Source: Candidatus Omnitrophota bacterium
Lineage (GTDB): Bacteria > Omnitrophota > Gorgyraeia > Zapsychrales > JAHFFX01
Assembly: GCA_023247705.1 (NCBI GenBank)
Contig: JAHFFY010000001.1
Coordinates: 33,358 to 97,357, forward strand
Reading direction: 5' to 3'
DNA: 64,000 nt
A model generated the notes under the pieces. It saw nothing but the letters and a program-made list of their open reading frames with translations. It did not search any database and had not been told where the DNA came from. Position numbers and translations under genes: made by a program. Shown in pieces: positions 15,189 to 52,770 of the stretch. Every line of letters begins with the position of its first letter. Position 1 is the stretch's first letter.

Positions 15189-15323
15189 ATACGTCCATTC
15201 TTCTAAACACATACCTAAAGTGTGTCTGTAAGTGTTTTTATCAAGCGCAAAAATTTATTTCATAACTTATTGAAGATAATTAGGTTATAGATTTAAAAAA
15301 TATTCTCAACATCGATACAAAGA

Positions 15324-15339
15324 TGGCACACTAGTTGCT
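15324..15339 (+). promoter_or_regulatory. Sigma-54 (-24/-12) promoter, TGGCAC-N5-TTGCT, heading the EPS operon
   Basis: Exact consensus match: TGGCAC at 15324-15329, 5-nt spacer, TTGCT at 15335-15339. About 85 nt upstream of the first gene (15425). Confidence 0.7.
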
Positions 15340-15424
15340 TAATGCCATTGTAAATCGATGCAATAATGATTTGCGATATTCAATATATATTATAAAATAC
15401 ACAAAGTAAAAAGGAGGAGTTGCA

Positions 15425-15610
15425 GTGAAGAAGAGAATGACTATTACGGAAGTCGCCGGCATGATTGGCATCAGTCCGAAAACAATAGCGCGATGGGAAA
15501 AAGTTGGAAAAATTAAAAAACCCAAACGAGATTGGCGTGGATGGCGAGTGTACGATGAAAATGATGTCACCCAGATTCGGGAATTTCATGAGACTGTGTT
15601 TGAGGTATAA
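15425..15610 (+). CDS. Small MerR/excisionase-type HTH DNA-binding protein
   Basis: TITEVAGMIGISPKTIARWEKVGKI helix-turn-helix; GTG start 6 nt after an AAAGGAGGAG RBS; first gene behind the sigma-54 promoter. Confidence 0.6.
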   Translation: MKKRMTITEVAGMIGISPKTIARWEKVGKIKKPKRDWRGWRVYDENDVTQIREFHETVFEV

Positions 15611-15648
15611 AAAGTCTTAAATTTAATCAATTTAAGGAGTCGCAATAT

Positions 15649-16488
15649 ATGAAACACAATATAAAAACATTTAATATTCTGATTTTAGCTTTAATGGCCA
15701 TTCTATTGGACTTTAACGTTGTTCACGCCGAAAATTATGCTGGCGGGAATCCAGAGATCAAAGCTAAAGAACAAACTCAAAAATTAACAGAAACCAAGAA
15801 TACTGATACTACTAAAGAAGCTCAAGAAGGGATGGTAGTCCAGGAACCTAGCGCAGAAGATATTCTTCAGCAATCACAATCTTTATCATCGGAATCTGAT
15901 CCGAGTCGATATACGTTAGGAGTCAATGACGTGATCGAAATATCTGTATTGCGCCATCCAGAAGTCACAGGGCAATATGTGATTAATAGTGAAGGCAAGA
16001 TCCAATACGAATTTGTCGGAGATATTAAAATTCAAGGAAAGACAAAGGATGAGGTCAAGGCGATCATAACCGAAAGTTTATCAAAATATATCGTATCTCC
16101 GGATGTAACAGTTAAAATCAGCGGATATAACAGTAAAGTCGTCTATGTCATTGGAGAAGTTGGAAATCCGGGAAAGATTTATATGCGAGGAGATACGATT
16201 ACCATTCATGAAGCTCTCCTGCAAGCGGGCTTACCGCTTTTAACCGCTTCTACGCGAAAAAGCAGGCTCATAACACCTTCAAAAGAAGGAAAGGCTTCTC
16301 AAAAATTCGTTAATGTGGAAGCTTTGCTGTATGAAGGTGACTTAAGAGAAAATTTAGTGATGAAACCTGGAGATACTCTTTATATCCCAGCAACTGTTAT
16401 GGCGAAGGCTATGAGAGTTATTTCTCCGGTCGCTCAACCAGTCGGAGCAGCCGCTACTACTGGAAGAACCGTTACGACAGGTTTTTAA
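15649..16488 (+). CDS. Polysaccharide export protein (Wza/OPX-like periplasmic Poly_export + SLBB domains)
   Basis: Signal peptide; Poly_export-like motif (YTLGVNDVIEISVLRHPE...); SLBB-like repeat (VYVIGEVGNPGKIYM). Confidence 0.8.
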   Translation: MKHNIKTFNILILALMAILLDFNVVHAENYAGGNPEIKAKEQTQKLTETKNTDTTKEAQEGMVVQEPSAEDILQQSQSLSSESDPSRYTLGVNDVIEISVLRHPEVTGQYVINSEGKIQYEFVGDIKIQGKTKDEVKAIITESLSKYIVSPDVTVKISGYNSKVVYVIGEVGNPGKIYMRGDTITIHEALLQAGLPLLTASTRKSRLITPSKEGKASQKFVNVEALLYEGDLRENLVMKPGDTLYIPATVMAKAMRVISPVAQPVGAAATTGRTVTTGF

Positions 16489-16536
16489 TTTTATCATAAT
16501 AACCGTTATTCTCGGATAGGCAAGAAAGGAAATAGC

Positions 16537-17841
16537 ATGGATGATTTAAATACTAGTTCGCTGTCAGTCATGAGTTATCTAAAAATATTTTTTAGAAGAA
16601 AATGGCTGTTTATTATTCCCGTGTATGCCGGTTTGATTTTCGGTGTTTGTGCAGGGATAGTTCTTCCGAAAAAATATTTATCATCCACAATTATTTTGGT
16701 AGAGGAAGGGAAATCGGATAATCCTTTGTTTAATAATTTAGCTGTTTCAACGACCGTCACGCAACGTATGACAGCGATTCAAGAGTCCATGCTCGGATGG
16801 AATAGTCTGGTCAAACTCGTTAAACGGTTAAATATGGATTCCTTGGTGAAAACGCCGCAAGATTTGGAAAAGCTGATTTTAGGCATAAGAAAGGACATAA
16901 TTATCAAATTACGTGATAAGAATATTATTGATCTATCTTACATTGGTACGGAGCCGGAACAGACTCAAGCCGTCGTTAAGAATATCACAGAAATTTTTAT
17001 CGAAAGAAACGTTGAAGTCCAAAGCAAGGAAACCTCTGATGCCATCACTTTTATAGAAGGGCAGTTGCATCTTTATCAGGGGAAGATTAAATCAGCAGAA
17101 ATTGCGCAACTTCAAGATCAATTGAATACATTATTATTAGATTCAACCGAACAACACCCGCATGTCAAGCAACTCAGAGAACAGATTGAAAACAAAAAAC
17201 AAGAATTAGCCAAAGAGAACCTGGTATATACGGAAAATGTTTCTCTGGATACAAGCACTACAAATCCTATTATTGATGAAATCAAAAAAGCTTTAGGTAA
17301 TATCGAAACAGCGAGCAATGATGGTCCCGATGCCAACGGGATCAACGATCCAGGAACCAAGGATATTTATAAAGTTATGTTAATTGATAAACTTGACAAT
17401 GTGATCGCCCGTGATGTTAATGTTAACACGAACATTTATAATATGCTTTTACAGCGACTGGAAACTGCGAAAATTACCCAGCGCCTGCAGTCGTCAAAAG
17501 AAGGTACGAAATATACAATTTTAGATCCGCCGCGGGTTCCGCTAGATCCAGTACAACCTAATAAAGTTTTAGTGATCATGATGGGAACCTTGCTTGGCGC
17601 GATCATCGGAGGGGCATTGGTTTTTGCGATCGAGTTCCTTGATAAATCGTTTCTTGATGTTGAGGAAGCCAAAGAATATCTCGGAACACCTCTTTTAGGA
17701 GCGATTTCAAAGATTGTTACAGTGGAAAGTTTGCAGCAAGACAAAGTTAAACAAGGATGGATTGCCGGATTAACCGCAGTGGCCGGAGTCATCATCGTCA
17801 TTGTCACAGTGCTGGTATCGAAATTTATTTCAAACAGTTAA
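16537..17841 (+). CDS. Polysaccharide chain-length determinant protein (Wzz/PCP family, PEP-CTERM-locus type)
   Basis: N-terminal and C-terminal TM helices flanking a long coiled-coil periplasmic region; Wzz-like N-terminal motif. Confidence 0.75.
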   Translation: MDDLNTSSLSVMSYLKIFFRRKWLFIIPVYAGLIFGVCAGIVLPKKYLSSTIILVEEGKSDNPLFNNLAVSTTVTQRMTAIQESMLGWNSLVKLVKRLNMDSLVKTPQDLEKLILGIRKDIIIKLRDKNIIDLSYIGTEPEQTQAVVKNITEIFIERNVEVQSKETSDAITFIEGQLHLYQGKIKSAEIAQLQDQLNTLLLDSTEQHPHVKQLREQIENKKQELAKENLVYTENVSLDTSTTNPIIDEIKKALGNIETASNDGPDANGINDPGTKDIYKVMLIDKLDNVIARDVNVNTNIYNMLLQRLETAKITQRLQSSKEGTKYTILDPPRVPLDPVQPNKVLVIMMGTLLGAIIGGALVFAIEFLDKSFLDVEEAKEYLGTPLLGAISKIVTVESLQQDKVKQGWIAGLTAVAGVIIVIVTVLVSKFISNS

Positions 17842-20403: not shown

Positions 20404-21381
20404 ATGATGGAAAAATATTTAATTACTGGTGGAGCTGGTTTTGTAGGATCTAACATTGCAGAGCATCTTATCCGGCAAGGACATTTCGTCCGGGTGCTGG
20501 ATAACTTCTATACGGGTAAAGAAGAGAATTTAGTTTTTACACAGAGCTTGGGCAAAAAACAGTTCGAATTGATCCGAGGCGATATTAGAGATAAATCCAT
20601 GTGTGAACAAGCGACTCAGGGAATGGATTATGTTCTTCACCAGGCCGCGTTGCGTTCGGTCCCGAAATCGCTGCAAGACCCCCAAAGTTATAATGATGTC
20701 AATATTAATGGGATTTTAACGATGTTGCAGGCGTCCGCGAAGAATAAAGTAAAACGGTTTGTATTCGCGTCTTCAAGTTCGGTCTATGGTGACACAACCA
20801 TCTTCCCTCAAACGGAAGAGCATCTACCGTTACTGATTTCTCCCTATGCCTTAAGTAAATTAGCCGGAGAATATTATTGCCGTATATTTTCTGAATTTTT
20901 TAATTTAGAAACGGTTTGTTTGCGTTATTTCAATATTTTTGGACCCAAGCAGGCGCTTGATGATGAATATGCCGTCGTGATTCCAAAATTTATACATTGT
21001 ATTCTGCATGATCAACCGCCGCCCATCTTCGGGACAGGGAAACAATCCAGAAATTTTACGTATATCGATAACGTGATATTGGCCAATATTCTTGCCGCGA
21101 CAACTCTGGGGATCAAACATGAGGTTTTCAACGTGGCCAGCGGAAAAGATAATACGGTATTAGAACTCGTTAGAGTCATCAATCAAGTTCTCAAGAAAAA
21201 TGTAGAGCCTAAATTTTTGCCGGTCAGAGCCGGCGACATTTTCAGAACAAACGCGGATCTTTCGAAAATTGAGAAGATTTTAAAATATAAGTCATTGGTC
21301 GATTTCCAGGATGGGATTGAAAGAACAATCAATTATTTCAGAACAAAATGGGCAAAAAATTATTCTGCTGCACAAAATTGA
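20404..21381 (+). CDS. NAD-dependent sugar epimerase/dehydratase (UDP-sugar 4-epimerase, WbpP/TviC-like)
   Basis: GGAGFVGS Rossmann motif; YxxxK (YALSK) catalytic dyad; SDR-extended fold. Confidence 0.8.
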   Translation: MMEKYLITGGAGFVGSNIAEHLIRQGHFVRVLDNFYTGKEENLVFTQSLGKKQFELIRGDIRDKSMCEQATQGMDYVLHQAALRSVPKSLQDPQSYNDVNINGILTMLQASAKNKVKRFVFASSSSVYGDTTIFPQTEEHLPLLISPYALSKLAGEYYCRIFSEFFNLETVCLRYFNIFGPKQALDDEYAVVIPKFIHCILHDQPPPIFGTGKQSRNFTYIDNVILANILAATTLGIKHEVFNVASGKDNTVLELVRVINQVLKKNVEPKFLPVRAGDIFRTNADLSKIEKILKYKSLVDFQDGIERTINYFRTKWAKNYSAAQN

Positions 21382-21493
21382 TGGGATTTTACAGTTTTGT
21401 GTAGCAATATTTTCTCCAGAGAATATTGCTGCGAAGCAAAAGAAACCAGTCCGATTGCTTTCGTGAAGGAGAATAATTTAATTCCTTGAAACC

Positions 21494-22528
21494 ATGATCA
21501 TTCAATACTTAAAATCAAAGCTAAAGTTGCTAGTCTGTCATTTTATTCTGTATTCCGGAATTCTGCATTGTTATATTGAATTCGTTTACAAAAGACGAAG
21601 ATCTTTTCCTCTTATTATCATCAACTACCACGGATTTTTTACGAATATTGATCAGCTAATCGATTCCGGACATTCGGTCTCACACCGGATTAGTGATTTC
21701 AGGAAAGAACTTAAATTTTTACGGCGATACTTTAAGCTGATCTCGCTCGATGAAGCTGTCCAGGCCCTGAAGAAGAACAAACAGTTCGACCAGCCAACCA
21801 TCACCCTGACCGTGGATGATGGATATAAGAATAATTTTGAAATCCTTTTTCCTGTTTTAAAAGAAACCAATACGCCGATCACCATATTTTTAACGGCCGG
21901 TTTAATCGGAACAAAAGACAGAACCTGGGTGAGCCAGATGGGAGATATGATTTTAAAAGCTTCTGGGGAATCGCTTAAACTTAACGGGCTTTTCTCCAAA
22001 CAATCCTTTTCCCTGAAATCATTGGCGGACAAACGTCGGACATACGCGAAGATTTTAGGGAAATTGAAAGATTTATCAAATTCCGACCGGAATCAATATC
22101 TGAAAGAAATTGAACATCTGCTCGGTGGTGTGACGTACGATACTCCGGATATGTTGAACTGGGATGATGCGCGTATGATGCAAAAGCATAATGTGTTTTT
22201 CGGCGCCCATACCTGTAACCATCCGATCCTTACCAATATTCCCTTGGAAGAAGCCAAAAAAGAAATCCTGGATTCTAAGAAAATGATTGAGAAAGAATTA
22301 GGCGTTCCGGTCAAGCATTTTGCCTATCCGAATGGCCGGCCGAGAGATTTTAATGAAGAGTTGCGTCAATACTGTAAAGAAATCGGTCTGGAAAGCATTG
22401 CCACGTGTGATTACGGTCATAATCATCGTCCGGATGATATCTGGGCGTTAAAACGCATCGGTCCGCCTTTGCCGGTCAGTATTTATGCGTTCAATATTTT
22501 TCGGGCGTTATTGAAGAGAGGTTCGTGA
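21494..22528 (+). CDS. Polysaccharide deacetylase (NodB-homology domain)
   Basis: TLTVDDGY, catalytic Asp-Asp and His motifs of carbohydrate esterase family 4. Confidence 0.7.
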   Translation: MIIQYLKSKLKLLVCHFILYSGILHCYIEFVYKRRRSFPLIIINYHGFFTNIDQLIDSGHSVSHRISDFRKELKFLRRYFKLISLDEAVQALKKNKQFDQPTITLTVDDGYKNNFEILFPVLKETNTPITIFLTAGLIGTKDRTWVSQMGDMILKASGESLKLNGLFSKQSFSLKSLADKRRTYAKILGKLKDLSNSDRNQYLKEIEHLLGGVTYDTPDMLNWDDARMMQKHNVFFGAHTCNHPILTNIPLEEAKKEILDSKKMIEKELGVPVKHFAYPNGRPRDFNEELRQYCKEIGLESIATCDYGHNHRPDDIWALKRIGPPLPVSIYAFNIFRALLKRGS

Positions 22529-23730: not shown

Positions 23731-23750
23731 CCCGGCTGGGCAAAGAACCG

Positions 23751-24890: not shown

Positions 24891-25676
24891 ATGAAGCAGA
24901 TATTGGAACAAATCTTAAAATACCGCGACCTCTTGTTCATGCTGACCTTAAGAGACATCAAGATCCGCTACAAGCAGGCGGTCATGGGATTCTTGTGGGC
25001 CATTTTCATGCCGATGGTGGCGGTGGCATCAGGACTTTTGATCAAAAAGGCCATGTCCGTCGTTTCGGGAAAACCAATGGATTTAGCGAGTGTTGTTTCG
25101 ATATCGGTCAAAGTCCTTCCCTGGACGTTTTTTGTGAGCGCGATCAAATTTTCGGTTCAAACACTGGTTGGAAACAGCAATTTAGTGACCAAGATTTATT
25201 TCCCGCGGGTTGTGCTGCCGTTGTCTTCGATTTTGGCCTGTCTTTTTGATTTTGGTATCGCGATTCTTGTTTTGAGCGTCCTTTTGATCATTGCCAAGAT
25301 TGGTATCAGTGTTTACATCCTATGGTTGCCGATTGTTCTTTTCTTGCTGGTTTTGTTTACCGCAGGAACAGGGATCCTCTTAGCTTCGATCAATCTGTTT
25401 TTGCGAGATGTTAAATATATTGTAGAAGTCATCTTGATGTTCGGGATATTTTTTACACCAGTTTTCTATGACGCCAGCAGCGTTGGCGAATGGAAAATAT
25501 TTTTATTGTTAAATCCGATCGGAAGTTTATTGGAGTCGATCAATCGGGTTGTGGTACTTCATCAGATGCCTGATTTATTCTGGCTGACGTACGCAGGGTT
25601 TTGTTCCGTCGTGATATTTTTTTTAGGGATTATTATTTTTCATAGACAGGAACCTTATTTTGCCGAGAATATATAA
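24891..25676 (+). CDS. wzm: ABC-2 type polysaccharide export permease (Wzm)
   Basis: Six TM helices; ABC-2 signature region; precedes the Wzt ATPase. Confidence 0.8.
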   Translation: MKQILEQILKYRDLLFMLTLRDIKIRYKQAVMGFLWAIFMPMVAVASGLLIKKAMSVVSGKPMDLASVVSISVKVLPWTFFVSAIKFSVQTLVGNSNLVTKIYFPRVVLPLSSILACLFDFGIAILVLSVLLIIAKIGISVYILWLPIVLFLLVLFTAGTGILLASINLFLRDVKYIVEVILMFGIFFTPVFYDASSVGEWKIFLLLNPIGSLLESINRVVVLHQMPDLFWLTYAGFCSVVIFFLGIIIFHRQEPYFAENI

Positions 25677-25690
25677 AATTGGAGAAATAA

Positions 25691-26926: not shown

Positions 26927-26929
26927 GGT

Positions 26930-28564: not shown

Positions 28565-28591
28565 AATCCTAAGGGAAAGATTAGAACTTAT

Positions 28592-28720: not shown

Positions 28721-28780
28721 ACAAGTTCTAGACAGTTTGATCGCTCTGGTTGTTATTTGGTAGAAAGAATTAAATTTAAC

Positions 28781-31011: not shown

Positions 31012-31019
31012 GAGTTGAC

Positions 31020-41176: not shown

Positions 41177-41187
41177 TATGATTTCGC

Positions 41188-43089: not shown

Positions 43090-43091
43090 AT

Positions 43092-44234: not shown

Positions 44235-44235
44235 T

Positions 44236-45453: not shown

Positions 45454-46650
45454 ATGAAGATTTTATTTGTTGCACCCCGTTTACCCGTCCCGGCTGATAC
45501 GGGAGGAAAAATTCGGACATTCAATCTTTTAAAACAAATCGCGAAAAAAGCCGAGACCAGATTGGTTTGTTTTTCCTTTGAGAAGGAAGATAAGGGACTG
45601 GCCAATGAGCTCGATAAAAATTTAGGTATTTTAACCTCCCTGATTCCGATGCTGCCGCTGGGGTTGATCAATAATATCAAAAATGTCTTAGCCGATCCTT
45701 TGCCGTATTCCATCATCAAATATTATTCACCGGCCATGGAGGAGACTTTAACCTCTTTCAAAGCAATCGGAACATTTGACGCGGTTCATATCGATCATTT
45801 GCATATGGGACATTACATCAAGTGTTTGAGTCCATTACCATGTATTCTGGATGAACATAATGTCGAATATAGAATTCTGGAACGTTGCGCCAAATTTGAA
45901 CGCTCATTTTTCAAACGGTGTTTTTTTTCACAACAAGTTCTCAAAATGAAAACCTTTGAAGCGAGTAAAATTCAGGAATGTTCTCAATTCTGCGCTGTCT
46001 CTGATGATGATCGTAAGGATCTTTTGACATTAGGCCAGGGAAAAGCCAAAGGACACACCATTGCTAATGGAGTGGATACGGAATATTTTCATCCTCAGGC
46101 GTTTACTTCTATGGAGGAAGAATCGTCCTTGGTTTTTACCGGATCGATGGACTGGTTGCCGAACGAAGATGCGGTCTTGTTTTTTTGCAAGGACATTCTG
46201 CCTCTGATCTGGAAAGATAAACCCGAGGTCAAATTTTATGTGGTGGGTAAGGCGCCTTCATCTGCGATCCAAGAACTTGCGCGCAAAGACCCCCGGATCA
46301 TCGTCACCGGTCGGGTCGATGATGTTCGTCCCATTATGGCGAAAGCAAAGGTTTTTGTTGTTCCGATGAGAGTTGGCGGGGGGACGCGATTGAAGATTCT
46401 GGAAGCCATGGCGATGCAAAAGGCCGTAGTCTCCACAAAAGTCGGAGCGGAAGGGATCCAATACACAGAAGGTAAAAATATCCTCATTGGAGATTCTCCT
46501 GAGGCATTTGCAAAGCAGGTGATTGCGGCTCTCAATGATTCGGCTAAAACCACTGAAATCGGAATTCTAGCAAGAGACCTGGTTTGTCGACAATATGATT
46601 GGAACAGTATTGGTGAACGATTATGGAGCATTTATGCAAAATTCGCCTAA
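45454..46650 (+). CDS. Family 4 glycosyltransferase (PEP-CTERM locus sugar-transferase type)
   Basis: GT-B; GGTRLKILEAMAMQKAVV. Confidence 0.75.
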   Translation: MKILFVAPRLPVPADTGGKIRTFNLLKQIAKKAETRLVCFSFEKEDKGLANELDKNLGILTSLIPMLPLGLINNIKNVLADPLPYSIIKYYSPAMEETLTSFKAIGTFDAVHIDHLHMGHYIKCLSPLPCILDEHNVEYRILERCAKFERSFFKRCFFSQQVLKMKTFEASKIQECSQFCAVSDDDRKDLLTLGQGKAKGHTIANGVDTEYFHPQAFTSMEEESSLVFTGSMDWLPNEDAVLFFCKDILPLIWKDKPEVKFYVVGKAPSSAIQELARKDPRIIVTGRVDDVRPIMAKAKVFVVPMRVGGGTRLKILEAMAMQKAVVSTKVGAEGIQYTEGKNILIGDSPEAFAKQVIAALNDSAKTTEIGILARDLVCRQYDWNSIGERLWSIYAKFA

Positions 46651-47419
46651 GCAAAATCCGATCGTGTTAATGTACCATGGCATCATCAGCCATCCGGATT
46701 CCATCCCAAATAATAGAGAACCGGGAGCGGACTTATATGATGTTTCGCTGGATCAATTTAATGCACAGATGGAATTTATAAAAACGTATGGGTATCCTGT
46801 GGTTAGGTTTGGTCATGAGGACGATCTCGGAAAGAAGAGAAATGTCGTAATGACATTCGACGATGGCGAGAGCAATAATTTTGATGGCGCGTTTGCTGTT
46901 CTCAGGAAGTTCGGCTTTCCGGCTTATTTCTTTGTAATCGTGCATCGGATTGGACGTCCCGGTTATATGAGCTGGGAAATGCTTCACGAATTAATTGCTA
47001 ATGGGATGATCATTGGATCACACGGTCTAAGTCACGCAATTTTAACTCAATGCACAAATCGGCAAATCGAAGAAGAGTTTACAGAATCCAAATCTATTTT
47101 AGAAAAAAATTTGAATTCCCAGGTGAATGATTTTTCTGTTCCCCGGGGTTTTTATAACGCAAGGGTTATCGAGGCCGCACGGAGGGCTGGTTATAAAAAT
47201 ATTTTTATCTCCACTAAACTTACGAACGAAGCCGATCATGGTATTGAACGAATCGCCATCAAGAGAAACTGGACGATGGAACGTTTTCAACAGAGTTTAG
47301 AAGGCCGAGTCTCTCTTGGCGAAATTATCTTGGATTTGATCAAAACTACTTGCAAAAAATTTTTCGGCGGGGCGATTTACAATCGTATCAGAAATAAATT
47401 ACTCGGTTCAAAATTATGA
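46634..47419 (+). CDS. Polysaccharide deacetylase (NodB-homology domain), second copy
   Basis: VMTFDDGESNN plus His motifs. An ATG at 46634 is plausible; the track ORF starts at 46595. Confidence 0.7.
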   Translation: MQNSPKQNPIVLMYHGIISHPDSIPNNREPGADLYDVSLDQFNAQMEFIKTYGYPVVRFGHEDDLGKKRNVVMTFDDGESNNFDGAFAVLRKFGFPAYFFVIVHRIGRPGYMSWEMLHELIANGMIIGSHGLSHAILTQCTNRQIEEEFTESKSILEKNLNSQVNDFSVPRGFYNARVIEAARRAGYKNIFISTKLTNEADHGIERIAIKRNWTMERFQQSLEGRVSLGEIILDLIKTTCKKFFGGAIYNRIRNKLLGSKL

Positions 47420-48564
47420 AAACCATATTCTGGATTTTATTCATATTAATCGTGTACTGTTATTTTGGATATCCGATCCTGCTTAGCGTTTTCGCCAGCT
47501 GCCGTACGCGAAAAGTTATAAAACAAGAAATTTTTCCAACCATTTCCGTTGTGATCTCGGTTGCGAATGAGGAATCGGTCATTGAGAAGAAGATGAGTAA
47601 CCTTTTATCCATGGATTATCCTTCCGACAAACTGGAAATTTTAATCGGATCGGATGGTTCAACGGATAAAACGAATGATATCGTCCGAAATTTTAACGAC
47701 AAACGCATTCAGCTAATTGTTAGTTCACAGCGAAAAGGGAAGATGGCGACCGTTAATCAACTGGTTCAACTGGCCCAAAACGAAATGATCGTTTTTACGG
47801 ATGCCCGTCAGATGTTTGACCGAGTTGCTTTTAAGGAATTGGTTTTTAACTTTGCCGATCCACACGTAGGATGTGTCAGCGGAGAGTTGATTTTTACGAA
47901 AAAGGAAGGCTCGACCGCTCAGGGAATTAATCTATACTGGGAATATGAAAAATTTATGCGTCAAAAAGAAAGCCAACTTCATTCCATGATCGGGGCAACA
48001 GGAGCGATCTATGCGATCCGTCGAAAATTGTTTGTTCCTGCGCCGACCAATATGATTTTGGATGATGTTTTTACGCCGCTTAAAATTGTTCAACAAGGGT
48101 ACCGTGCGATCTTTGAGGGACAGGCGATCGCTTACGATGAAGCGGCAAACAACCCAAAAGAAGAATATGCGCGGAAAGCCAGAACCTTAGCCGGCAATTA
48201 TCAGATATTTTTTGTTTTGCCGGACATCTTTAACCCCTTGAAAAGTCCTTTGGCGATTCAGATGTTCTCGCATAAACTGCTAAGGGTTTTGATCCCATTT
48301 TTTTTGATTTTTTTGCTCATTATCAATTTTAAATTAAGAAACAATCAATTTTTTATTTTTATTTTATGGGGCCAGATCCTTTTCTACGGGATGGCGATAT
48401 TGGGAAGCTTGGCAAAAAAACCAAAATATGCTATTCTTAAGCCTATTTCTAAAATGTGTTATATTCCCTATGTCTTTTGTCTCCTTAATTTCTCTGCTTT
48501 AGCTGGATTTTGGCGCTTTGTTCGGTCTTCGCAGACGGTCACTTGGGAGAAGGCAAGGACTTAG
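47416..48564 (+). CDS. Family 2 glycosyltransferase with N- and C-terminal TM segments (processive-type topology)
   Basis: ISVVISVANEE, DGSTD, TDAR motifs; C-terminal multiple TM helices. Confidence 0.75.
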   Translation: MKTIFWILFILIVYCYFGYPILLSVFASCRTRKVIKQEIFPTISVVISVANEESVIEKKMSNLLSMDYPSDKLEILIGSDGSTDKTNDIVRNFNDKRIQLIVSSQRKGKMATVNQLVQLAQNEMIVFTDARQMFDRVAFKELVFNFADPHVGCVSGELIFTKKEGSTAQGINLYWEYEKFMRQKESQLHSMIGATGAIYAIRRKLFVPAPTNMILDDVFTPLKIVQQGYRAIFEGQAIAYDEAANNPKEEYARKARTLAGNYQIFFVLPDIFNPLKSPLAIQMFSHKLLRVLIPFFLIFLLIINFKLRNNQFFIFILWGQILFYGMAILGSLAKKPKYAILKPISKMCYIPYVFCLLNFSALAGFWRFVRSSQTVTWEKART

Positions 48565-48586: not shown

Positions 48587-49405
48587 ATGCGTGAGTTAAT
48601 TACAAAATATAAAAACCAATTTTTAATTGCTTTAATCTTATTATTTACCTATACGCCCACATTAATTTGGATGTGGGATCGATGGTTTACTCGGGATTCT
48701 TATTATTCGCATGGGATTCTTATTCCATTCATTACAGCTTATTTAATCTGGCAGAATAGATCACAGTTAATGCAGATGAAACCAGAAAAATCCGAGATAG
48801 GGATGAAATTGATCATTCTCGGACTGTTTGTTCATTTAATTAGTTCTCTTTTCCGGGTTTATTTTTCCTCTGGTTTTTCTCTGGTGATTGTTATTATCGG
48901 ACTCATTCTTTATTTTTATGGAGAAAAAATTTTAAAAGATATCTCGTTCCCGATCGTTTTTTTATTTTTTATGGTTCCCTTACCGCTGGTTGTTATTATC
49001 AATATTAGTTTTAAGATGAAATTATTCGCGGCTCAAATTGCGGCTGTTGTGTTAAATAGCATGAATATTCTGGCGGTCAGGGAGGGGAGCCTGATTCGCA
49101 TGGCTAATGCCCAAGTTGTCGTCGATGATGTCTGCAGCGGGTTGCGATCTTTGATGTCGTTGACGGCCTTAGGAAGCATTTTTGCGTATTGGATGAAAGG
49201 GCCGATGTGGAAGCGGCTTTTACTGTTTTTGTCTACAGTCCCCATCGCGGTGATCACAAATGTGTGCCGAATTATATTGCTTGCTTCGGTCAGCGAGATT
49301 TGGGGGTCGAAATACGCGACGGGGTTTATTCATGATCTTTCTGGCTTTATTGTTTTTGCGTTAGCTTTTATTTTATTGTATTCAGTTTCTAGGTTAATGG
49401 AATAA
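48587..49405 (+). CDS. Exosortase (EpsH/XrtA family)
   Basis: Eight-TM architecture. Conserved exosortase motifs: DDVCSGLRSL (catalytic Cys region), NVCRIILL (Asn/Arg) and the HD-like C-terminal motif. The track ORF starts at 48518, overlapping the upstream gene. Confidence 0.85.
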   Translation: MRELITKYKNQFLIALILLFTYTPTLIWMWDRWFTRDSYYSHGILIPFITAYLIWQNRSQLMQMKPEKSEIGMKLIILGLFVHLISSLFRVYFSSGFSLVIVIIGLILYFYGEKILKDISFPIVFLFFMVPLPLVVIINISFKMKLFAAQIAAVVLNSMNILAVREGSLIRMANAQVVVDDVCSGLRSLMSLTALGSIFAYWMKGPMWKRLLLFLSTVPIAVITNVCRIILLASVSEIWGSKYATGFIHDLSGFIVFALAFILLYSVSRLME

Positions 49406-49407: not shown

Positions 49408-50043
49408 ATGATACGTGATAAAAATTTTGGCATCATTGTTTGTCTTCTATTAATTTCCGGAATAATTTCCTGGGTTTTATATTTCAAGGAATATACTCAA
49501 GTGGATACAGTGGATATTACCAAATTTCCGAAATCGATATCGGGCTGGACAGCTGAAGATCTTCCAATCAGCAAGGAAGAGTATGATATTTTAGAGACTC
49601 ACAATGTCGTAGCAAGGCGTTATAAAAATATTCAGAATGAACCGATATATCTCTTAATTGTTTATTCTCAGCATAATCGCAAAATTTCTCATCCTCCAGA
49701 AGTTTGCTATACAGGGGGAGGCGTTACTATTTTAGAAAATGTTAAAGATAAGATCCCTGTTTCTGCAGGAAAGAATATAATCAGTGCGAACCGATTACTT
49801 TTAGAGCTAAGGGGGACCAAGCAGTTTTCGTATTATTGGTTTAAAGTAGGCGATTCGTTTACCGCGAACTATTGGAATCAACAAGCCCTCATTGCCGTAA
49901 AAACATTGTTTGGGCAGCCTCATAGTAGCGCATTAATTCGAATTTCATCCGACATCAGCAAGAATGATGAAAAAGGGGCTATTGATCGAATTAAGTACTT
50001 TACAAATTTGATCCTAAATGATTTAAATCGATATCTGCCGTAA
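49408..50043 (+). CDS. EpsI-family exosortase-associated protein
   Basis: N-terminal TM; size, position (immediately 3' of exosortase) and ISGWTAEDLPISKEEYDIL...VVARRY region match the EpsI family. Confidence 0.7.
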   Translation: MIRDKNFGIIVCLLLISGIISWVLYFKEYTQVDTVDITKFPKSISGWTAEDLPISKEEYDILETHNVVARRYKNIQNEPIYLLIVYSQHNRKISHPPEVCYTGGGVTILENVKDKIPVSAGKNIISANRLLLELRGTKQFSYYWFKVGDSFTANYWNQQALIAVKTLFGQPHSSALIRISSDISKNDEKGAIDRIKYFTNLILNDLNRYLP

Positions 50044-50297: not shown

Positions 50298-50313
50298 TGG
50301 CACATTATTTGCT
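50298..50313 (+). promoter_or_regulatory. Sigma-54 (-24/-12) promoter, TGGCAC-N5-TTGCT
   Basis: Exact consensus at 50298-50303 / 50309-50313; about 45 nt upstream of the ATG at 50358; the same 16-mer architecture as the promoter at 15324. Confidence 0.7.
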
Positions 50314-50357: not shown

Positions 50358-51224
50358 ATGGAAACTCAGAAAAAAATCAATCACAACTCTAAAGGAAAAA
50401 TGACAGTTGTTTTAGCGGTCATTTTCCTCATGCTATTTGTTCAAGCAGCTTGGGCGACCCTTTCCTTTCTCAAACCGTATGACAGTGACATCCAATCAAC
50501 GAATATAAAGGAAGGCAATGCATCAGAAATTCCTGAGCAATTACCCGAAAATTCGAAATCGCATGCTCCTGAGCCGACAACTCTAGCGTTATTTGGGAGT
50601 GGTGTTCTTGGGATGGTTGTGAGTGCCATTCGAAAGGCTTATAACCATGCAAAAAGAATTTTTGATATATTTGTATCAATTGTCGCTTTTATCATCCTTT
50701 CTCCATTGTTTTTATTTGCTGCCGTTCTCATCAAGTTGAGCTCCCGCGGACCGGTTTTGTTCACCCAAGAGCGAGTAGGAAAAGATGGAAAACATTTCAA
50801 AATTTATAAATTCCGTACCATGCGCGTGGATGCTGAGAAAGAAACAGGGCCGGTTTGGGCAAAGGCAAATGACACTAGACTTATCCCTTCCGGACGTTTT
50901 TTAAGAAAGACTCATATTGATGAAATCCCTCAGTTTTTTAATGTCCTTATAGGTGACATGAGTATTATTGGGCCAAGACCTGAACGGCCAGTTTTCGTAA
51001 CTAAATTTAAAGAAATTATTCCTGATTATGAACAAAGACTATCAGTCAAACCGGGCATTACTGGTTTAGCGCAAGTTTGGCATAAATATGATGAGACGAT
51101 CGAAGATGTCCGTAAAAAAATCCGTTATGATTTGTTATATATTAAAAAGTTATGTCTTTGGACTGATTTAAAGATATTTTTAAGGACTTTTCGGGTTGTT
51201 CTAACTGGAGAGGGAGCTCGATAG
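50358..51224 (+). CDS. Polyprenyl-phosphate sugar phosphotransferase (small WcaJ/EpsL-type priming enzyme) with an N-terminal signal-peptide + PEP-CTERM-like module
   Basis: The catalytic domain starts at KRIFDIFVSIV..., the usual N-terminus of small priming sugar transferases, and contains RTMRVDAE and IIGPRPERP motifs. The preceding 85 aa carry a signal peptide (VVLAVIFLMLFVQAAWA) and a PEP-CTERM-like motif (APEPTTLALFGSGVLGMVVSAIRKAYNHAKR). Confidence 0.75.
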   Translation: METQKKINHNSKGKMTVVLAVIFLMLFVQAAWATLSFLKPYDSDIQSTNIKEGNASEIPEQLPENSKSHAPEPTTLALFGSGVLGMVVSAIRKAYNHAKRIFDIFVSIVAFIILSPLFLFAAVLIKLSSRGPVLFTQERVGKDGKHFKIYKFRTMRVDAEKETGPVWAKANDTRLIPSGRFLRKTHIDEIPQFFNVLIGDMSIIGPRPERPVFVTKFKEIIPDYEQRLSVKPGITGLAQVWHKYDETIEDVRKKIRYDLLYIKKLCLWTDLKIFLRTFRVVLTGEGAR

Positions 51225-51377: not shown

Positions 51378-52289
51378 ATGAAGAAGTTATTTGTAGTTTT
51401 AGCCCTAGTTGTTGGAGTGTTCTCAATTAACTCCCAAGTTTGGGCACAACCGTTTACACCATCGATGGCGGGAGATACTTATGATACTACGCCAGATGCG
51501 ATCCCGACTCCTAAGGATAATAATGATAACTTAGGACCTTATTCGGGTACGCCTTATACGTTAAGTTCAACAGAACCTGGTTCACATGGACCTAACCCGG
51601 CGGACATCAACGATGCCATCAATTTGCTTTTGAGCACTGCTTACGTAAGAAATCAAGATGTTGATTTCCTTCGTTTTCTTGGCCCAGATGCAACCTGGAA
51701 AGACTTGAGCACAATAGATAACGATGGAACATATGTGCTCGTTTCTCTTACCGCAGCTAACGAAAATACCTTAAGAGTGTATGATGTGGCTTCACCTGGG
51801 ATTAAATTGAATGTTCTTGGCCCAGATCGGGGTTTTGGATATACTGGGGATGGAAGCCTGGCTAAACCTTTTGAGGCTGGTTTTTCTCCATTAACTCCAG
51901 GAACGAACTTTGGTTGGTCACTAAAAAGTGAAAGAAAGGCACCCCAGACTCCTCCATTTTTTGTAAGAGAATGGGATTCCAATGTCGCTTTTAACGTTGA
52001 TGGTTTGGATCATATGTTGACATACCATTTAGCCGATTTAAAAGGTAAGAAAGTTTACATCAAAGTTGGCACGGTTGTTCAGCAGTATACGTTTAACGAT
52101 CCATATCTTTTAGCCTGGGAAGACAAAGGATTAGGCACAGATGGTAAACTAGGCGATGAAGATTATGATGATCTTATTTATCTAGTTGATCGCGTTCAAC
52201 CTTTCAACCCGGTTCCAGAACCGATGAGCATGATGTTGCTCGGTAGTGGGTTGGTTGGTTTAGTTGGTTTAAGAAAGAAGATTAGTTAA
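51378..52289 (+). CDS. PEP-CTERM domain secreted protein (exosortase substrate)
   Basis: Sec signal peptide (AQP cleavage); C-terminal VPEPMSMMLLGSGLVGLVGLRKKIS (PEP motif + TM helix + basic tail). Confidence 0.85.
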   Translation: MKKLFVVLALVVGVFSINSQVWAQPFTPSMAGDTYDTTPDAIPTPKDNNDNLGPYSGTPYTLSSTEPGSHGPNPADINDAINLLLSTAYVRNQDVDFLRFLGPDATWKDLSTIDNDGTYVLVSLTAANENTLRVYDVASPGIKLNVLGPDRGFGYTGDGSLAKPFEAGFSPLTPGTNFGWSLKSERKAPQTPPFFVREWDSNVAFNVDGLDHMLTYHLADLKGKKVYIKVGTVVQQYTFNDPYLLAWEDKGLGTDGKLGDEDYDDLIYLVDRVQPFNPVPEPMSMMLLGSGLVGLVGLRKKIS

Positions 52290-52292
52290 TAA

Positions 52293-52321
52293 TCTTTTAC
52301 GGAATTATCAGAAGTAAAAGA
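52293..52321 (+). other. AU-rich hairpin between the two PEP-CTERM genes (possible attenuator or processing site)
   Basis: TCTTTTAC (52293-52300) / GTAAAAGA (52314-52321), 13-nt loop; no T-tract. Confidence 0.2.
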
Positions 52322-52381
52322 AAATATATTCCCTAGAGCATTTGATAACCTGTAGCAAAAAGGAGAGGAGGTTCATATGAG

Positions 52382-52660
52382 ATGTCAAAAGACACGAAAA
52401 AACTTTTATCTTTTGCCCTTATCTCGTTATTTCTCCCGTTCTTTGTCGGGTGTCAAGGTGCTGCCAATCAACTAAGTGAATTCACCTTGGGTGGGGGTGG
52501 TACAAACAATGCTGTTAGTTCTGGTTTTTTCCCCCTTAGTGTTGTAGATGGAGGTACTGCGATAGCAGCCATCCACAATCCAGAACCTACAACAGTGTTA
52601 TTGTTAGGGAGTGGCTTCATAACAATGGGTTTATATAGGAATCGAAGAAAGAATAGATAA
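52382..52660 (+). CDS. Mini lipoprotein with C-terminal PEP-CTERM domain (dual-anchor exosortase substrate)
   Basis: Lipobox FFVGC after a signal peptide; C-terminal HNPEPTTVLLLGSGFITMGLYRNRRKNR; AGGAGAGGAGG RBS. Confidence 0.75.
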   Translation: MSKDTKKLLSFALISLFLPFFVGCQGAANQLSEFTLGGGGTNNAVSSGFFPLSVVDGGTAIAAIHNPEPTTVLLLGSGFITMGLYRNRRKNR

Positions 52661-52686
52661 TCGATCCCTTATATATGAAATAAGAT

Positions 52687-52731
52687 AAAAAAATACGGTA
52701 GGATGAGTGATCTTCCTACCGTATTTTTTTT
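52687..52731 (+). terminator. Rho-independent (bidirectional-type) terminator after the PEP-CTERM genes
   Basis: A-tract at 52687-52692; 11-bp stem ATACGGTAGGA (52693-52703) / TCCTACCGTAT (52714-52724); 10-nt loop; T8 at 52725-52732. Confidence 0.8.
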
Positions 52732-52770
52732 ATTCGTGACCGTACTTAAGGCAAAAATTTGGCTTTATGT

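What the first reader, a model, noticed from the sequence alone, without database searches (positions are those of the whole stretch)
15300..52732. Size and complexity of the exosortase-linked glycan locus
About 37 kb and roughly 40 genes are co-directional, with 15 glycosyltransferases (GT2 and GT4), two deacetylases, two ATP-grasp ligases, DegT-like and FemAB-like enzymes, a methyltransferase, both ABC and OPX/PCP export parts, a Wzy_C-like protein, exosortase, EpsI, and PEP-CTERM substrates. It runs from one sigma-54 promoter to one strong terminator. A glycan of high structural complexity is implied. The arrangement may represent an undescribed exosortase subtype, judged by the PGT fusion, the HTTM-DCC protein, and the absence of the asparagine-synthase and acyl-CoA-ligase genes usually seen in type-1 loci.
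Basis: partly seen in the sequence, partly recalled or inferred. Interest (0 to 1): 0.55.

Follow-up and report, generated by a model that had tools for sequence, protein, structure and literature searches.

The report
Omnitrophota exosortase sugar-coat locus
This is a 43-kb gene cluster from an uncultured Omnitrophota bacterium that builds and exports a surface polysaccharide together with "PEP-CTERM" sorted proteins; it is a diverged version of a known system, with one unusual twist: the enzyme that starts the sugar chain itself carries the sorting tag in front of its catalytic domain.

Summary
36 tightly packed + strand genes lie between 15,425 and 52,660. They include 13 glycosyltransferases plus one priming phosphoglycosyl transferase (PGT), making 14 rather than 15. 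There are two exact sigma-54 promoters (15,324 and 50,298), not one. The conserved system runs five genes past the terminator, to 58,402.

The organism is Candidatus Omnitrophota. The exosortase and nine relatives score 174-190 bits against XrtA, below the cut-off of 208. No NCBIfam subtype model claims them. Every accessory gene hits XrtA-system families best but below cut-off. It is therefore an unclassified, XrtA-like lineage.

Across about 30 Omnitrophota species the conserved core is: deacetylase, GT2, exosortase, EpsI, PGT, PEP-CTERM proteins, a 289-aa membrane protein, TPR, GAF-kinase, sigma-54 regulator, PocR-GAF. The glycosyltransferase block varies. The DCC protein is not a marker, and its HTTM domain was not detected.

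The real hallmark is the PGT. It has a signal peptide, a variable linker, a PEP-CTERM signal as conserved as the catalytic domain, then a complete PglC-like PGT. All 120 nearest homologues share this layout, and variants occur in Elusimicrobiota.

A 40-kb size is already known for XrtA loci. Verdict: a new variant of a known kind, of moderate interest.

The parts
13651..15042 (-). rpoN (sigma-54), divergent neighbour and left boundary of the locus
   Evidence: TIGR02395 scores 378 bits, above its cut-off of 277
15324..15339 (+). Sigma-54 promoter 1 (TGGCACactagTTGCT)
   Evidence: One of only two exact consensus matches in the 64-kb window; intergenic and on the + strand
15425..15610 (+). 61-aa MerR-type HTH protein, first ORF of the operon
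   Evidence: PF13411 at 43.8 bits
15649..20339 (+). Export module: OPX (15649-16488), PCP/chain-length determinant (16537-17841), ExeA-like ATPase (17866-18750), 238-aa coiled-coil membrane protein (18806-19522), BY-kinase (19554-20339)
   Evidence: The best NCBIfam hits are the XrtA-system families TIGR03027, TIGR03007, TIGR03015 and TIGR03018, all below cut-off. Pfam finds Poly_export, Wzz/GNVR and AAA_22
20404..24851 (+). Sugar-modification genes: TviC-like epimerase, deacetylase 1, ATP-grasp 1, Acetyltransf_6 (FemAB-like GNAT)
24891..27619 (+). Wzm permease, Wzt ATPase with a Wzt_C carbohydrate-binding domain, TylF-type O-methyltransferase
   Evidence: PF01061; PF00005 plus PF14524 (52.8 bits); PF05711 (144.6 bits)
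27626..37392 (+). Nine glycosyltransferases: GT2 at 27626, 28673, 33516, 34366 and 36508; GT4 at 29722, 31020, 32285 and 35319. This is the variable block
   Evidence: NCBIfam and Pfam hits. Only weak (22-35% identity) GT4/GT2 paralogue-level matches in related loci; four of the nine have none
37394..45390 (+). ATP-grasp 2; Wzy_C/O-antigen-ligase-like protein (38704-40044); GT4 (40031); 633-aa 8-TM plus DCC1-like protein (41188-43089); DegT-like protein (43092); GT4 (44236)
45454..48564 (+). Start of the conserved core: stp1-like GT4 (45454-46650), deacetylase 2 (46595-47419), membrane GT2 (47416-48564)
   Evidence: TIGR03087 scores 260.6 against a cut-off of 316.65. Present next to the exosortase in 9, 18 and 21 of 31 related loci respectively
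48587..49405 (+). Exosortase (272 aa), XrtA-like and unclassified
   Evidence: TIGR02602 scores 174, above its cut-off of 105.55. XrtA scores 185.3, below 208. C183, R228 and H249 are at least 97% conserved (scored invariant) in 120 homologues
49408..50043 (+). EpsI (211 aa, separate gene)
   Evidence: TIGR02914 scores 91, above its cut-off of 42.8
50298..50313 (+). Sigma-54 promoter 2 (TGGCACattatTTGCT), 45 nt upstream of the PGT start codon
   Evidence: The same motif lies upstream of the orthologous PGT in L001, L003 and about 11 further loci
50358..51224 (+). PGT with an embedded PEP-CTERM: signal peptide (aa 17-35), variable linker, PEP-CTERM (aa 70-93, APEPTTLALFGSGVLGMVVSAIRK), PglC-like monotopic PGT (aa 96-288)
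   Evidence: PF07589 at 23.0 bits and PF02397 at 233.6 bits. TIGR03025 scores 313.7, above 295.55. Foldseek matches PglC 8e37_A at E 5e-13. All 120 nearest homologues keep the motif
51378..52289 (+). PEP-CTERM protein (303 aa) with a DUF4114-like region; tail VPEPMSMMLLGSGLVGLVGLRKKIS
   Evidence: PF07589 scores 25.2, above 20.7
52382..52660 (+). Small PEP-CTERM lipoprotein-like protein (92 aa); tail NPEPTTVLLLGSGFITMGLYRNRRKNR
   Evidence: PF07589 scores 18.9, below cut-off, but the motif, TM segment and basic tail are explicit
52692..52732 (+). Intrinsic terminator (hairpin plus U-tract)
   Evidence: dG -24.3 kcal/mol, z -6.27, 0 of 200 shuffles as stable
52771..52798 (+). Sigma-70-like promoter (TTGACA-16-TAAAAT with an upstream TG)
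   Evidence: 11 of 12 matches; the best site in the 20-kb scan
52837..53706 (+). h289: a conserved 5-6 TM protein of unknown family, a core component
   Evidence: No Pfam or NCBIfam hit. 64 homologues, those with a source name all from Omnitrophota and called 'hypothetical'. Homologues sit beside PGT(PEP) in L066 (25% identity, E 5e-31) and L067 (27%, E 3e-27). AF2 pLDDT 90.3 with no PDB match
53706..54614 (+). Small TPR protein with a signal/anchor helix (302 aa)
   Evidence: TPR Pfam families. Present in 23 of 31 related loci
54624..57330 (+). Soluble GAF histidine kinase (54624-55934) and NtrC-type sigma-54 activator response regulator (55915-57330)
   Evidence: GAF, HisKA and HATPase domains with no TM segment. 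PEP_resp_reg scores 401.3 against a cut-off of 502.6. Syntenic in 15 and 21 of 31 loci respectively
57305..58402 (+). PocR-GAF sensory protein, the last conserved gene and right boundary
   Evidence: PF10114 and GAF. Present in 20 of 31 loci. The next genes are on the - strand

Best explanation
The region is a sigma-54-controlled PEP-CTERM/exosortase exopolysaccharide system of a Candidatus Omnitrophota bacterium. It is a deep, so far unclassified, XrtA-like lineage.

Shown:
- All parts for making a lipid-linked glycan are present. These are a PglC-type PGT, 13 glycosyltransferases, and enzymes for epimerisation, transamination, deacetylation, ATP-grasp/GNAT substitution and O-methylation.
- Parts to move the glycan out are present: Wzm/Wzt with a Wzt_C cap-binding domain, a Wzy_C ligase-like protein, PCP, BY-kinase and OPX.
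- They sit next to an apparently catalytically intact exosortase (conserved Cys/Arg/His), EpsI and two PEP-CTERM proteins.
- Two exact sigma-54 promoters head the big operon and the PGT/PEP-CTERM operon.
- rpoN lies next door, and a GAF-kinase/NtrC-type activator pair lies in the conserved downstream module.

Inferred:
- The kinase/activator pair switches on both sigma-54 promoters, as PrsK/PrsR are proposed to do in XrtA systems.
- The exosortase cleaves PEP-CTERM proteins at the outer face of the inner membrane, and these proteins end up associated with the polysaccharide.

The distinctive feature:
- The priming PGT carries, ahead of its re-entrant helix, a signal peptide, a short variable periplasmic stretch and a full PEP-CTERM signal.
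- The orientation is topologically correct: PEP at the periplasmic face and basic residues in the cytoplasm.
- I infer that this helix is recognised by the exosortase. It most likely acts as a docking or pseudo-substrate element that places glycan initiation beside the sorting enzyme. Less likely, it is a cleavage site.
- Variants with no periplasmic part at all ('MPEP...') favour docking over cargo delivery.
For: -
- The organism and a large family of 60-68% identical exosortases are shown.
- The core synteny deacetylase-GT2-Xrt-EpsI-PGT-PEP-CTERM-h289-TPR-HK-RR-PocR holds in L003 and across about 30 Omnitrophota species representatives.
- The only two exact sigma-54 consensus sites in the window lie at the two operon starts. 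The site is conserved before the PGT in relatives.
- PGT architecture: Pfam finds PEP-CTERM at aa 70-93 before Bac_transf at aa 99-282.
- All 120 nearest homologues keep (R/H)APEP(S/T)T followed by a TM segment and basic residues.
- Mean column identity is 0.81 for the PEP-CTERM segment, 0.83 for the catalytic domain and 0.25 for the linker.
- The internal motif keeps the L, G, G, G positions of genuine C-terminal tails.
- The C-terminal 190 aa form a complete PglC fold.
- An exhaustive profile search finds the same PEP-CTERM-plus-PGT arrangement with 130-260-aa N-terminal domains, one of them from Elusimicrobiota, and also with none.
- Those genes again sit beside PEP-CTERM proteins, h289 homologues and TPR proteins. 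In L067 they also sit beside a 46%-identical exosortase plus EpsI.
- C183, R228 and H249 of the exosortase are invariant.
- Known parallels: sigma-54 motifs and PrsK/R/T in XrtA systems (PMC1569441); epsB2 (a PGT) adjacent to prsK-prsR, and RpoN-dependent pepA, in Aquincola (PMC9850573).
Against: - No experiment exists for any exosortase in this phylum, and no paper in the held library addresses exosortase or PEP-CTERM systems in Omnitrophota.
- Recognition of the PGT by the exosortase is inferred only from conservation and topology.
- The PGT's PEP segment is not significantly more similar to PEP-CTERM tails of its own genome than to those of other genomes (0.457 against 0.439, Wilcoxon p = 0.09).
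- About 7 of 31 genome loci have PEA, PEF or SEA instead of PEP.
- The kinase is soluble and neither it nor the regulator reaches the PrsK/PrsR cut-offs. The regulatory link is by analogy and synteny only.
- No shared upstream activator site was found before the two promoters.
- No Wzx flippase was found. How a PGT-primed, possibly Wzy_C-handled glycan relates to the ABC exporter is unresolved.
Confidence: 0.7

Rival explanations
1. This is an ordinary XrtA type-1 system that has simply diverged with the phylum. The PEP-CTERM-like stretch on the PGT would be a relic of read-through fusion with an upstream small PEP-CTERM gene. It now serves only as an extra membrane anchor, with no interaction with the exosortase.
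For: - Every accessory protein has an XrtA-system family as its best NCBIfam hit.
- The XrtA score of 185 is close to the cut-off of 208.
- Older NCBI records name two relatives 'exosortase A'.
- A PGT next to the two-component system is also seen in XrtA organisms.
- A fusion would be topologically harmless.
- There is no significant within-genome co-variation of the motif.
- Some members have PEA, PEF or SEA.
Against: - None of the ten exosortases tested passes the XrtA cut-off, and XrtD and XrtW halves score equally well.
- The A-P-E-P residues are invariant in a 57-sequence alignment. The segment is as conserved as the catalytic domain, while the flanking linker is free to vary. A plain anchor would not need these residues.
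- The architecture recurs with unrelated N-terminal domains in other lineages, always in exosortase/PEP-CTERM neighbourhoods.
- PrsK- and PrsT-type proteins, the amidotransferase and the ligase are missing from the window.
Confidence: 0.3
2. The 37 kb does not specify one very complex glycan. It would be a mosaic of at least two pathways sharing one operon. One is an ABC-transporter-dependent, methyl-capped O-antigen-like polymer (Wzm, Wzt with Wzt_C, TylF and adjacent GT2/GT4 genes). The other is the exosortase-associated exopolysaccharide (PGT, core GT2, stp1/stp2-like GT4s, deacetylase, PCP/OPX).
For: - A Wzt_C domain and a TylF methyltransferase lie directly after the ABC genes.
- No Wzx flippase is detected among the 41 proteins.
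- The glycosyltransferase block is not conserved in relatives, whereas the core is.
- A Wzy_C ligase-like gene is present.
Against: - Gene spacing is tight (gaps of 137 nt or less) from 15425 to 50043.
- No internal promoter or terminator rises above background.
- Base composition is homogeneous.
- Only one PGT is present in the window.
Confidence: 0.4
3. The PGT is a true cleaved substrate. The exosortase would cut at PEP and release, or transfer, the short N-terminal peptide with its conserved mature N-terminus TLSF-KP-D. The cut would activate or regulate the PGT in a zymogen-like way, or would generate a signal peptide-like product.
For: - There is a signal peptidase site and a semi-conserved mature N-terminus (AWATLSFxKPxD).
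- The topology is correct for exosortase attack.
- In other lineages the N-terminal part is a full 130-260-aa domain, as in a normal PEP-CTERM cargo.
Against: - Variants starting directly with MPEP have nothing to release.
- The linker is poorly conserved.
- No biochemical data exist.
Confidence: 0.2

Closest known systems
XrtA (exosortase A) / PEP-CTERM 'type 1' EPS system of Proteobacteria (Haft et al. 2006, PMC1569441; TIGR03109 and associated TIGR030xx families)
   Same: - The exosortase and a separate EpsI sit inside a roughly 40-kb EPS locus.
- The locus has PCP, tyrosine kinase, OPX, an ExeA-like ATPase, stp1/stp2-like GT4s, a deacetylase, a FemAB-like GNAT, an O-antigen-ligase-like protein and a PGT.
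- PEP-CTERM genes lie behind sigma-54 promoters.
- A TPR protein and a kinase/NtrC-type regulator are present.
   Different: - The exosortase and all accessory proteins fall below the family cut-offs.
- The kinase is a soluble GAF kinase, not the transmembrane PrsK.
- The TPR protein has 302 aa, and no PrsT model appears among its NCBIfam hits (PrsT is about 900 aa from my own knowledge).
- There is no amidotransferase, acyl-CoA ligase, decarboxylase or hydrolase set in the window.
- There are extra h289 and PocR-GAF proteins.
- The PGT is a small PglC type carrying an internal PEP-CTERM, not the large polytopic EpsB2.
Floc-formation clusters of Zoogloea resiniphila and Aquincola tertiaricarbonis (PepA, EpsB2, PrsK/PrsR/PrsT, RpoN; PMC9850573)
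   Same: - A PEP-CTERM protein gene depends on RpoN.
- The priming sugar transferase gene lies adjacent to the two-component system.
- A large EPS cluster is required.
- The 303-aa PEP-CTERM protein here weakly matches floc_PepA through its tail (29 bits).
   Different: - The phylum is different.
- There is no experimental evidence here.
- EpsB2 in those organisms has no reported PEP-CTERM segment.
PglC-type small monotopic phosphoglycosyl transferases (Campylobacter PglC; PDB 8e37, 8g1n)
   Same: - The C-terminal 190 aa share the fold and 40% identity, including the re-entrant helix with its Ser-Pro break.
- From established knowledge of the family, it transfers a sugar-1-phosphate to polyprenyl phosphate.
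   Different: It is preceded by about 95 aa that PglC lacks: a signal peptide, a periplasmic linker and a PEP-CTERM transmembrane signal.
ABC-transporter-dependent O-polysaccharide export with terminal capping (E. coli O9a Wzm/Wzt/WbdD type; from my own knowledge)
   Same: It has an ABC-2 permease, an ATPase with a C-terminal Wzt_C domain and an adjacent methyltransferase.
   Different: Here it is embedded in an exosortase/OPX-PCP locus. The methyltransferase is TylF-like rather than WbdD-like. Cap recognition is untested.

Membership tests
Exosortase A (XrtA, TIGR03109.2) | Whole-protein score at or above the curated cut-off of 208 bits | tested here: not met
   The window protein scores 185.3 bits. 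Nine other Omnitrophota homologues score 174-190 bits. XrtD and XrtW N-terminal halves score 180-207 bits.
Exosortase/archaeosortase superfamily (TIGR02602, TIGR04178, PF09721) | Match above cut-off, 8-TM topology, and conserved catalytic Cys/Arg(/His) | tested here: met
   TIGR02602 scores 174 (cut-off 105.55) and TIGR04178 scores 70.5 (cut-off 23). Seven hydrophobic segments are detected. C183, R228 and H249 are at least 97% conserved (scored invariant) in 120 homologues.
EpsI (TIGR02914) | Match above cut-off, encoded next to or fused with the exosortase | tested here: met
   Scores 91 bits against a cut-off of 42.8. The gene starts 2 nt after the exosortase stop.
PEP-CTERM sorting signal (PF07589 / TIGR02595) | PEP motif, about 14-20 hydrophobic residues and a basic cluster, at the extreme C-terminus of a protein with a signal peptide | tested here: met
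   This holds for the 303-aa protein (25.2 bits, above 20.7) and, by explicit motif, for the 92-aa protein (18.9 bits, below cut-off).
PEP-CTERM sorting signal, applied to the PGT | Location at the C-terminus ('virtually without exception', Haft 2006) | tested here: not met
   The motif scores 23.0 bits (above 20.7) but lies at aa 70-93 of 288 and is followed by a 195-aa enzyme.
XrtA-system accessory set (TIGR03007, 03015, 03018, 03027, 03087, 03088, 03013, 03097) | Each protein reaches its equivalog cut-off | tested here: not met
   Scores against cut-offs are 241/279, 302/324.5, 166.5/230.65, 102.5/180, 260.6/316.65, 207/409, 269/393 and 69/188. Seven of the eight are the best or joint-best NCBIfam hit (TIGR03013 ranks third for the PGT), and none passes.
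XrtA-system accessory set | Presence of the amidotransferase (asparagine synthase-like), acyl-CoA ligase, decarboxylase and hydrolases | tested here: not met
   None is found among the products of the window's ORFs scanned. The rest of the genome is not testable with these tools.
PrsK/PrsR/PrsT regulatory trio | A transmembrane kinase (TIGR02916), a PEP-CTERM-box regulator (TIGR02915) and a large TPR lipoprotein | tested here: not met
   The kinase scores 85 against 300 and has no TM segment. The regulator scores 401 against 502.6, and AtoC scores higher. The TPR protein is only 302 aa. The arrangement is functionally analogous.
Sigma-54 control of PEP-CTERM genes | A -24 GG / -12 GC promoter upstream of PEP-CTERM genes | tested here: met
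   Exact TGGCAC-N5-TTGCT at 50298, before the PGT/PEP-CTERM genes, and at 15324. The site is conserved in relatives.
Monotopic PGT (PF02397; TIGR03025; PglC fold) | A Bac_transf domain with a re-entrant helix, and structural match to PglC | tested here: met
   PF02397 scores 233.6 bits. TIGR03025 scores 313.7, above 295.55. Foldseek matches 8e37_A at E 5e-13 with target-normalised TM-score (TMt) 0.77.
ABC-transporter-dependent polysaccharide export | An ABC-2 permease plus a Wzt-type ATPase, optionally with a Wzt_C domain | tested here: met
   PF01061, PF00005 and PF14524. Function is not tested.
Wzx/Wzy-dependent pathway | A Wzx flippase and a Wzy polymerase | tested here: not met
   No Wzx-type family hit appears among the locus proteins. 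Only a Wzy_C/O-antigen-ligase-like protein is present.
   DCC1-like scores 53.9 bits at aa 364-470. The 8-TM N-terminus gives no Pfam hit at E<=5 and has no PDB sequence relative.

The most novel reading that the evidence does not exclude
The priming phosphoglycosyl transferase would be a client of the exosortase. Its conserved internal PEP-CTERM helix would be bound, or cut, by the exosortase/EpsI pair. Polysaccharide initiation would then be physically or regulatorily coupled to protein sorting. Together with the h289 membrane protein, the small TPR protein and the GAF-kinase/sigma-54 regulator, this would define a distinct exosortase system type. That type would be shared by Omnitrophota, Elusimicrobiota and other uncultured lineages, and no current subtype model describes it.
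Probability: 0.4. Interest if true: 0.75.

Novelty: new variant of a known kind. Interest (0 to 1): 0.58.

Why it matters
To my knowledge, what exosortases attach PEP-CTERM proteins to, and how sorting is tied to exopolysaccharide synthesis, is still unresolved twenty years after the system was predicted.

Here the sorting signal is fused in the right topology to the enzyme that starts the glycan. The fusion is conserved across at least two phyla, and the motif is as constrained as the active site. It works as a natural 'Rosetta stone' pointing to direct contact between exosortase and the glycan-initiation step.

It also gives a simple test: does exosortase bind or cut this PGT?

The result fills in surface biology for Omnitrophota, a widespread phylum that, to my knowledge, has few or no cultured representatives. 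It also shows that current subtype models leave a large exosortase clade unnamed.

Tried and rejected
1. Co-variation test. I asked whether the PGT's PEP segment resembles PEP-CTERM tails of its own genome more than those of other genomes. The result was 0.457 against 0.439 with p = 0.09, which is not significant, so I do not use it as evidence.
2. Hairpin after EpsI. An AT-rich hairpin plus U-run at 50081-50110 could be an internal terminator, but its folding energy is no better than shuffled sequence (z 0.07), so I make no claim.
3. Shared activator site. I searched for a common upstream activator site before the two sigma-54 promoters. Only AT-rich chance matches appeared.
4. HTTM domain of the 633-aa protein. 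It has no Pfam hit at E<=5 and no PDB sequence relative.
6. Foreign insertion of the variable block. GC and GC3 are homogeneous across the locus.
7. The fusion as a gene-calling or assembly artefact. I reject this because all 120 nearest homologues, and genome loci from about 30 species, share it.
8. Homology between the N-terminal domain of the L067 PGT and the neighbouring PEP-CTERM proteins. Only the tail matches.
9. Source record. I could not retrieve the NCBI record of the window's own contig. Haft et al. 2012 is not in the held library.
10. Literature. Searches for PEP-CTERM with Omnitrophota, or with phosphoglycosyl or priming transferases, found nothing relevant.

Full report
**What is there**

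Between 15,425 and 52,660 lie 36 tightly packed ORFs, all on the + strand. Gaps are 137 nt or less up to 50,043 and become larger after that.

NCBIfam and Pfam scans identify the genes in this order:
- a 61-aa MerR-type HTH protein
- OPX
- PCP/chain-length determinant
- an ExeA-like ATPase
- a coiled-coil membrane protein
- a BY-kinase
- a TviC-like epimerase
- a polysaccharide deacetylase
- an ATP-grasp protein
- an Acetyltransf_6 (FemAB-like) GNAT
- a Wzm permease
- a Wzt ATPase carrying a Wzt_C domain
- a TylF O-methyltransferase
- nine GT2/GT4 glycosyltransferases
- a second ATP-grasp protein
- a Wzy_C/O-antigen-ligase-like protein
- a GT4
- a 633-aa protein with eight hydrophobic segments and a DCC1-like domain
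- a DegT-like protein
- two more GT4s (stp2- and stp1-like)
- a second deacetylase
- a membrane GT2
- the exosortase
- EpsI
- a polyprenyl-phosphate phosphoglycosyl transferase (PGT)
- two PEP-CTERM proteins

That makes 13 Leloir transferases plus the PGT: 14, not 15.

**Signals**

The sigma-54 consensus TGGCAC-N5-TTGCW occurs exactly twice in the 64-kb window. Both sites are intergenic and on the + strand:
- 15324, at the head of the big operon
- 50298, 45 nt before the PGT start codon

The terminator at 52692-52732 is real (dG -24.3, z -6.3). It is followed at once by the best sigma-70-like site of the region, at 52771-52798. Five more co-directional genes follow:
- a 289-aa polytopic membrane protein with no family ('h289')
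- a 302-aa TPR protein
- a soluble GAF histidine kinase
- an NtrC-type sigma-54 activator
- a PocR-GAF protein

rpoN itself lies divergently just upstream, at 13651-15042.

**Whose it is, and what is conserved**

The exosortase has over a hundred homologues at 60-68% identity. All that carry names come from Candidatus Omnitrophota.

Neighbourhoods of two homologues, plus 31 genome loci found through the PGT, were compared with the window by tblastn. The conserved block is: (stp1-like GT4), deacetylase, GT2, exosortase, EpsI, PGT, PEP-CTERM protein(s), h289, TPR, kinase, regulator, PocR-GAF.

One relative (L003) even shares the flanking PNPOx and XdhC genes.

The following have no counterpart within 10 kb of the PGT in any of these loci:
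- the DCC protein
- DegT
- both ATP-grasp genes
- the ABC exporter
- TylF

Most glycosyltransferases have no counterpart either, or only 22-35% identity paralogue-level matches. They form a variable block. The locus proper therefore spans about 15.3-58.4 kb (41 genes), with a conserved right-hand third.

**Subtype question**

With its true start at 48587 (272 aa), the exosortase gives these NCBIfam scores:

| Model | Score (bits) | Cut-off (bits) |
|---|---|---|
| XrtA | 185.3 | 208 |
| XrtD | 195.7 | 400 |
| XrtW | 179.8 | 425 |
| Generic exosortase | 174 | 105.55 |

The XrtD and XrtW matches cover only the exosortase half of those models. Only the generic model is passed.

Nine further Omnitrophota homologues behave the same way, scoring 174-190 bits against XrtA.

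The catalytic-type residues C183, R228 and H249 are invariant.

All accessory proteins hit XrtA-system families best but below cut-off. The kinase lacks the membrane domain of PrsK. The TPR protein is a third of the size of PrsT. No amidotransferase or acyl-CoA ligase gene is in the window.

This is therefore a deep XrtA-like lineage that current subtype models leave unnamed.

A size of about 40 kb is not special. A locus of that size was figured for Rhodospirillum rubrum in 2006 (PMC1569441).

**The PGT**

Pfam finds a PEP-CTERM motif at residues 70-93, ahead of the Bac_transf domain at 99-282.

The sequence reads as follows:
- a signal peptide ending in ...AWA
- a mature N-terminus TLSFLKPYD
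- a variable linker
- HAPEPTTLALFGSGVLGMVVSAIRKAY
- the KRIFD...LSP re-entrant helix
- the catalytic domain

The topology is self-consistent. PEP sits at the periplasmic face, the basic cluster is cytoplasmic, and the enzyme is cytoplasmic.

The C-terminal 190 aa are a complete PglC fold (8e37_A, E 5e-13, 40% identity).

Conservation of the motif:
- All 120 nearest homologues keep (R/H)APEP(S/T)T followed by a hydrophobic stretch and basic residues.
- Mean column identity is 0.81 for this segment, 0.83 for the catalytic domain and 0.25 for the linker.
- A70, P71, E72 and P73 are invariant in a 57-sequence alignment.
- Among genome loci, about 24 of 31 keep PEP. The rest have PEA, PEF or SEA.

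An exhaustive profile search with the PEP-CTERM-plus-re-entrant-helix segment recovered the same arrangement in three forms:
- with 130-260-aa N-terminal domains; one such protein is annotated Elusimicrobiota
- with no N-terminal part at all, the proteins starting MPEP
- in the short-linker form seen here

Their neighbourhoods again hold PEP-CTERM proteins, an h289 homologue and a TPR protein. In L067 they also hold a 46%-identical exosortase with EpsI.

Haft et al. stated that PEP-CTERM occurs 'virtually without exception' at the C-terminus. I found no paper describing this fusion.

**How it probably works**

Shown by sequence:
- a complete set of parts for lipid-linked glycan synthesis, modification and export
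- a seemingly competent exosortase with EpsI
- PEP-CTERM clients
- sigma-54 promoters
- a cognate-looking activator

Inferred by analogy with XrtA systems:
- The GAF kinase and NtrC-type regulator turn on the two sigma-54 operons.
- PEP-CTERM proteins are processed by the exosortase and become part of the polysaccharide matrix.

Inferred from conservation and topology:
- The exosortase recognises the PGT's PEP-CTERM helix.
- I favour docking or pseudo-substrate coupling of glycan initiation to the sorting enzyme, because cargo-less MPEP variants exist.
- Cleavage or activation is a weaker alternative. A mere membrane anchor is the main rival.

A test for within-genome co-variation of the motif was not significant (p = 0.09). 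Recognition therefore remains unproven.

**One glycan or two**

The ABC exporter carries a Wzt_C domain and is followed by a methyltransferase. No Wzx flippase is detectable. This pattern is typical of capped, ABC-dependent O-polysaccharides (my own knowledge of the E. coli O9a type).

The 13 transferases may therefore serve two polymers rather than one very complex one.

Tight spacing, the absence of internal signals above background, and uniform composition argue that everything is at least co-transcribed.

**Verdict**

- The 'undescribed subtype' idea is partly supported. The support comes from the PGT fusion and the conserved h289/TPR/regulator module, not from the DCC protein or from size.
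- This is a new variant of a known kind of system, with one specific and testable oddity.

Noticed in passing
window 13651-15042 (-): The sigma-54 gene rpoN lies immediately upstream of the sigma-54-dependent polysaccharide operon and is transcribed divergently from it. rpoN-like matches also appear within 10 kb of the PGT in two relatives (L015, L021).
   Followed up: partly
window 15166-15188: A perfect palindrome, TTGTCCTA-N7-TAGGACAA, lies about 140 bp upstream of the first sigma-54 promoter. It is a candidate binding site for an enhancer-binding protein. No matching site occurs before the second promoter.
   Followed up: partly
window 52837-53706 (+): The h289 family consists of 5-6 TM proteins of about 289 aa. 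No Pfam or NCBIfam model covers them and they are annotated 'hypothetical' everywhere. The AF2 model is confident (pLDDT 90) but has no PDB fold match. The gene always sits between the PGT/PEP-CTERM genes and the TPR gene, including in an Elusimicrobiota contig.
   Followed up: yes
window 41188-43089 (+): This 633-aa protein has eight hydrophobic segments, a DCC1-like thiol-disulfide oxidoreductase domain (aa 364-470) and a C-terminal extension. It is absent from all related loci examined. The N-terminal membrane domain matches no Pfam family.
   Followed up: partly
L023 and L025, about 9880-10000; also the N-termini of the PGT in L018, L022 and L027: In one Omnitrophota sub-clade a roughly 40-aa leader with the motif ...E(I/V)KK..(I/V)YL(A/T)IQRYAR... 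precedes the PGT. It is either a separate tiny ORF whose stop codon abuts the ATG of an 'MPEP...' PGT, or it is fused in frame to the PGT. Its function is unknown.
   Followed up: no
P0270: A predicted 2,500-aa protein contains ten complete PEP-CTERM signals. Each is followed by what looks like a new signal peptide, as if ten tandem PEP-CTERM genes were read through. The cause may be a gene-calling artefact or a reassigned stop codon in the source organism.
   Followed up: no
L001/L002 11898-13289 and 15652-19243: In one relative, a HipB/HipA toxin-antitoxin pair is inserted between EpsI and the PGT gene. Several more TA modules (BrnT/CopG, MazE/PIN, HepT/MNT) follow the PEP-CTERM gene and replace the regulatory module.
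   Followed up: no
L001 2757-4640; L003 5230-7050: Relatives carry a GH123-family glycoside hydrolase gene inside the exosortase-linked locus. It sits roughly where the window has the DCC and DegT genes.
   Followed up: no
window 34366-34454 and 46595-46650: The mechanical ORF starts overlap the preceding genes by 89 nt (GT2 at 34366, TTG start) and 56 nt (deacetylase at 46595). The true starts are probably further downstream.
   Followed up: no
window 8248-12633 (+) and 59834-60998 (-): The flanks hold a fused HemC / uroporphyrinogen methylase / HemD gene followed by hemB and hemL upstream. Two tandem cyclophilin-type PPIase genes lie downstream. Neither group is related to the locus.
   Followed up: no
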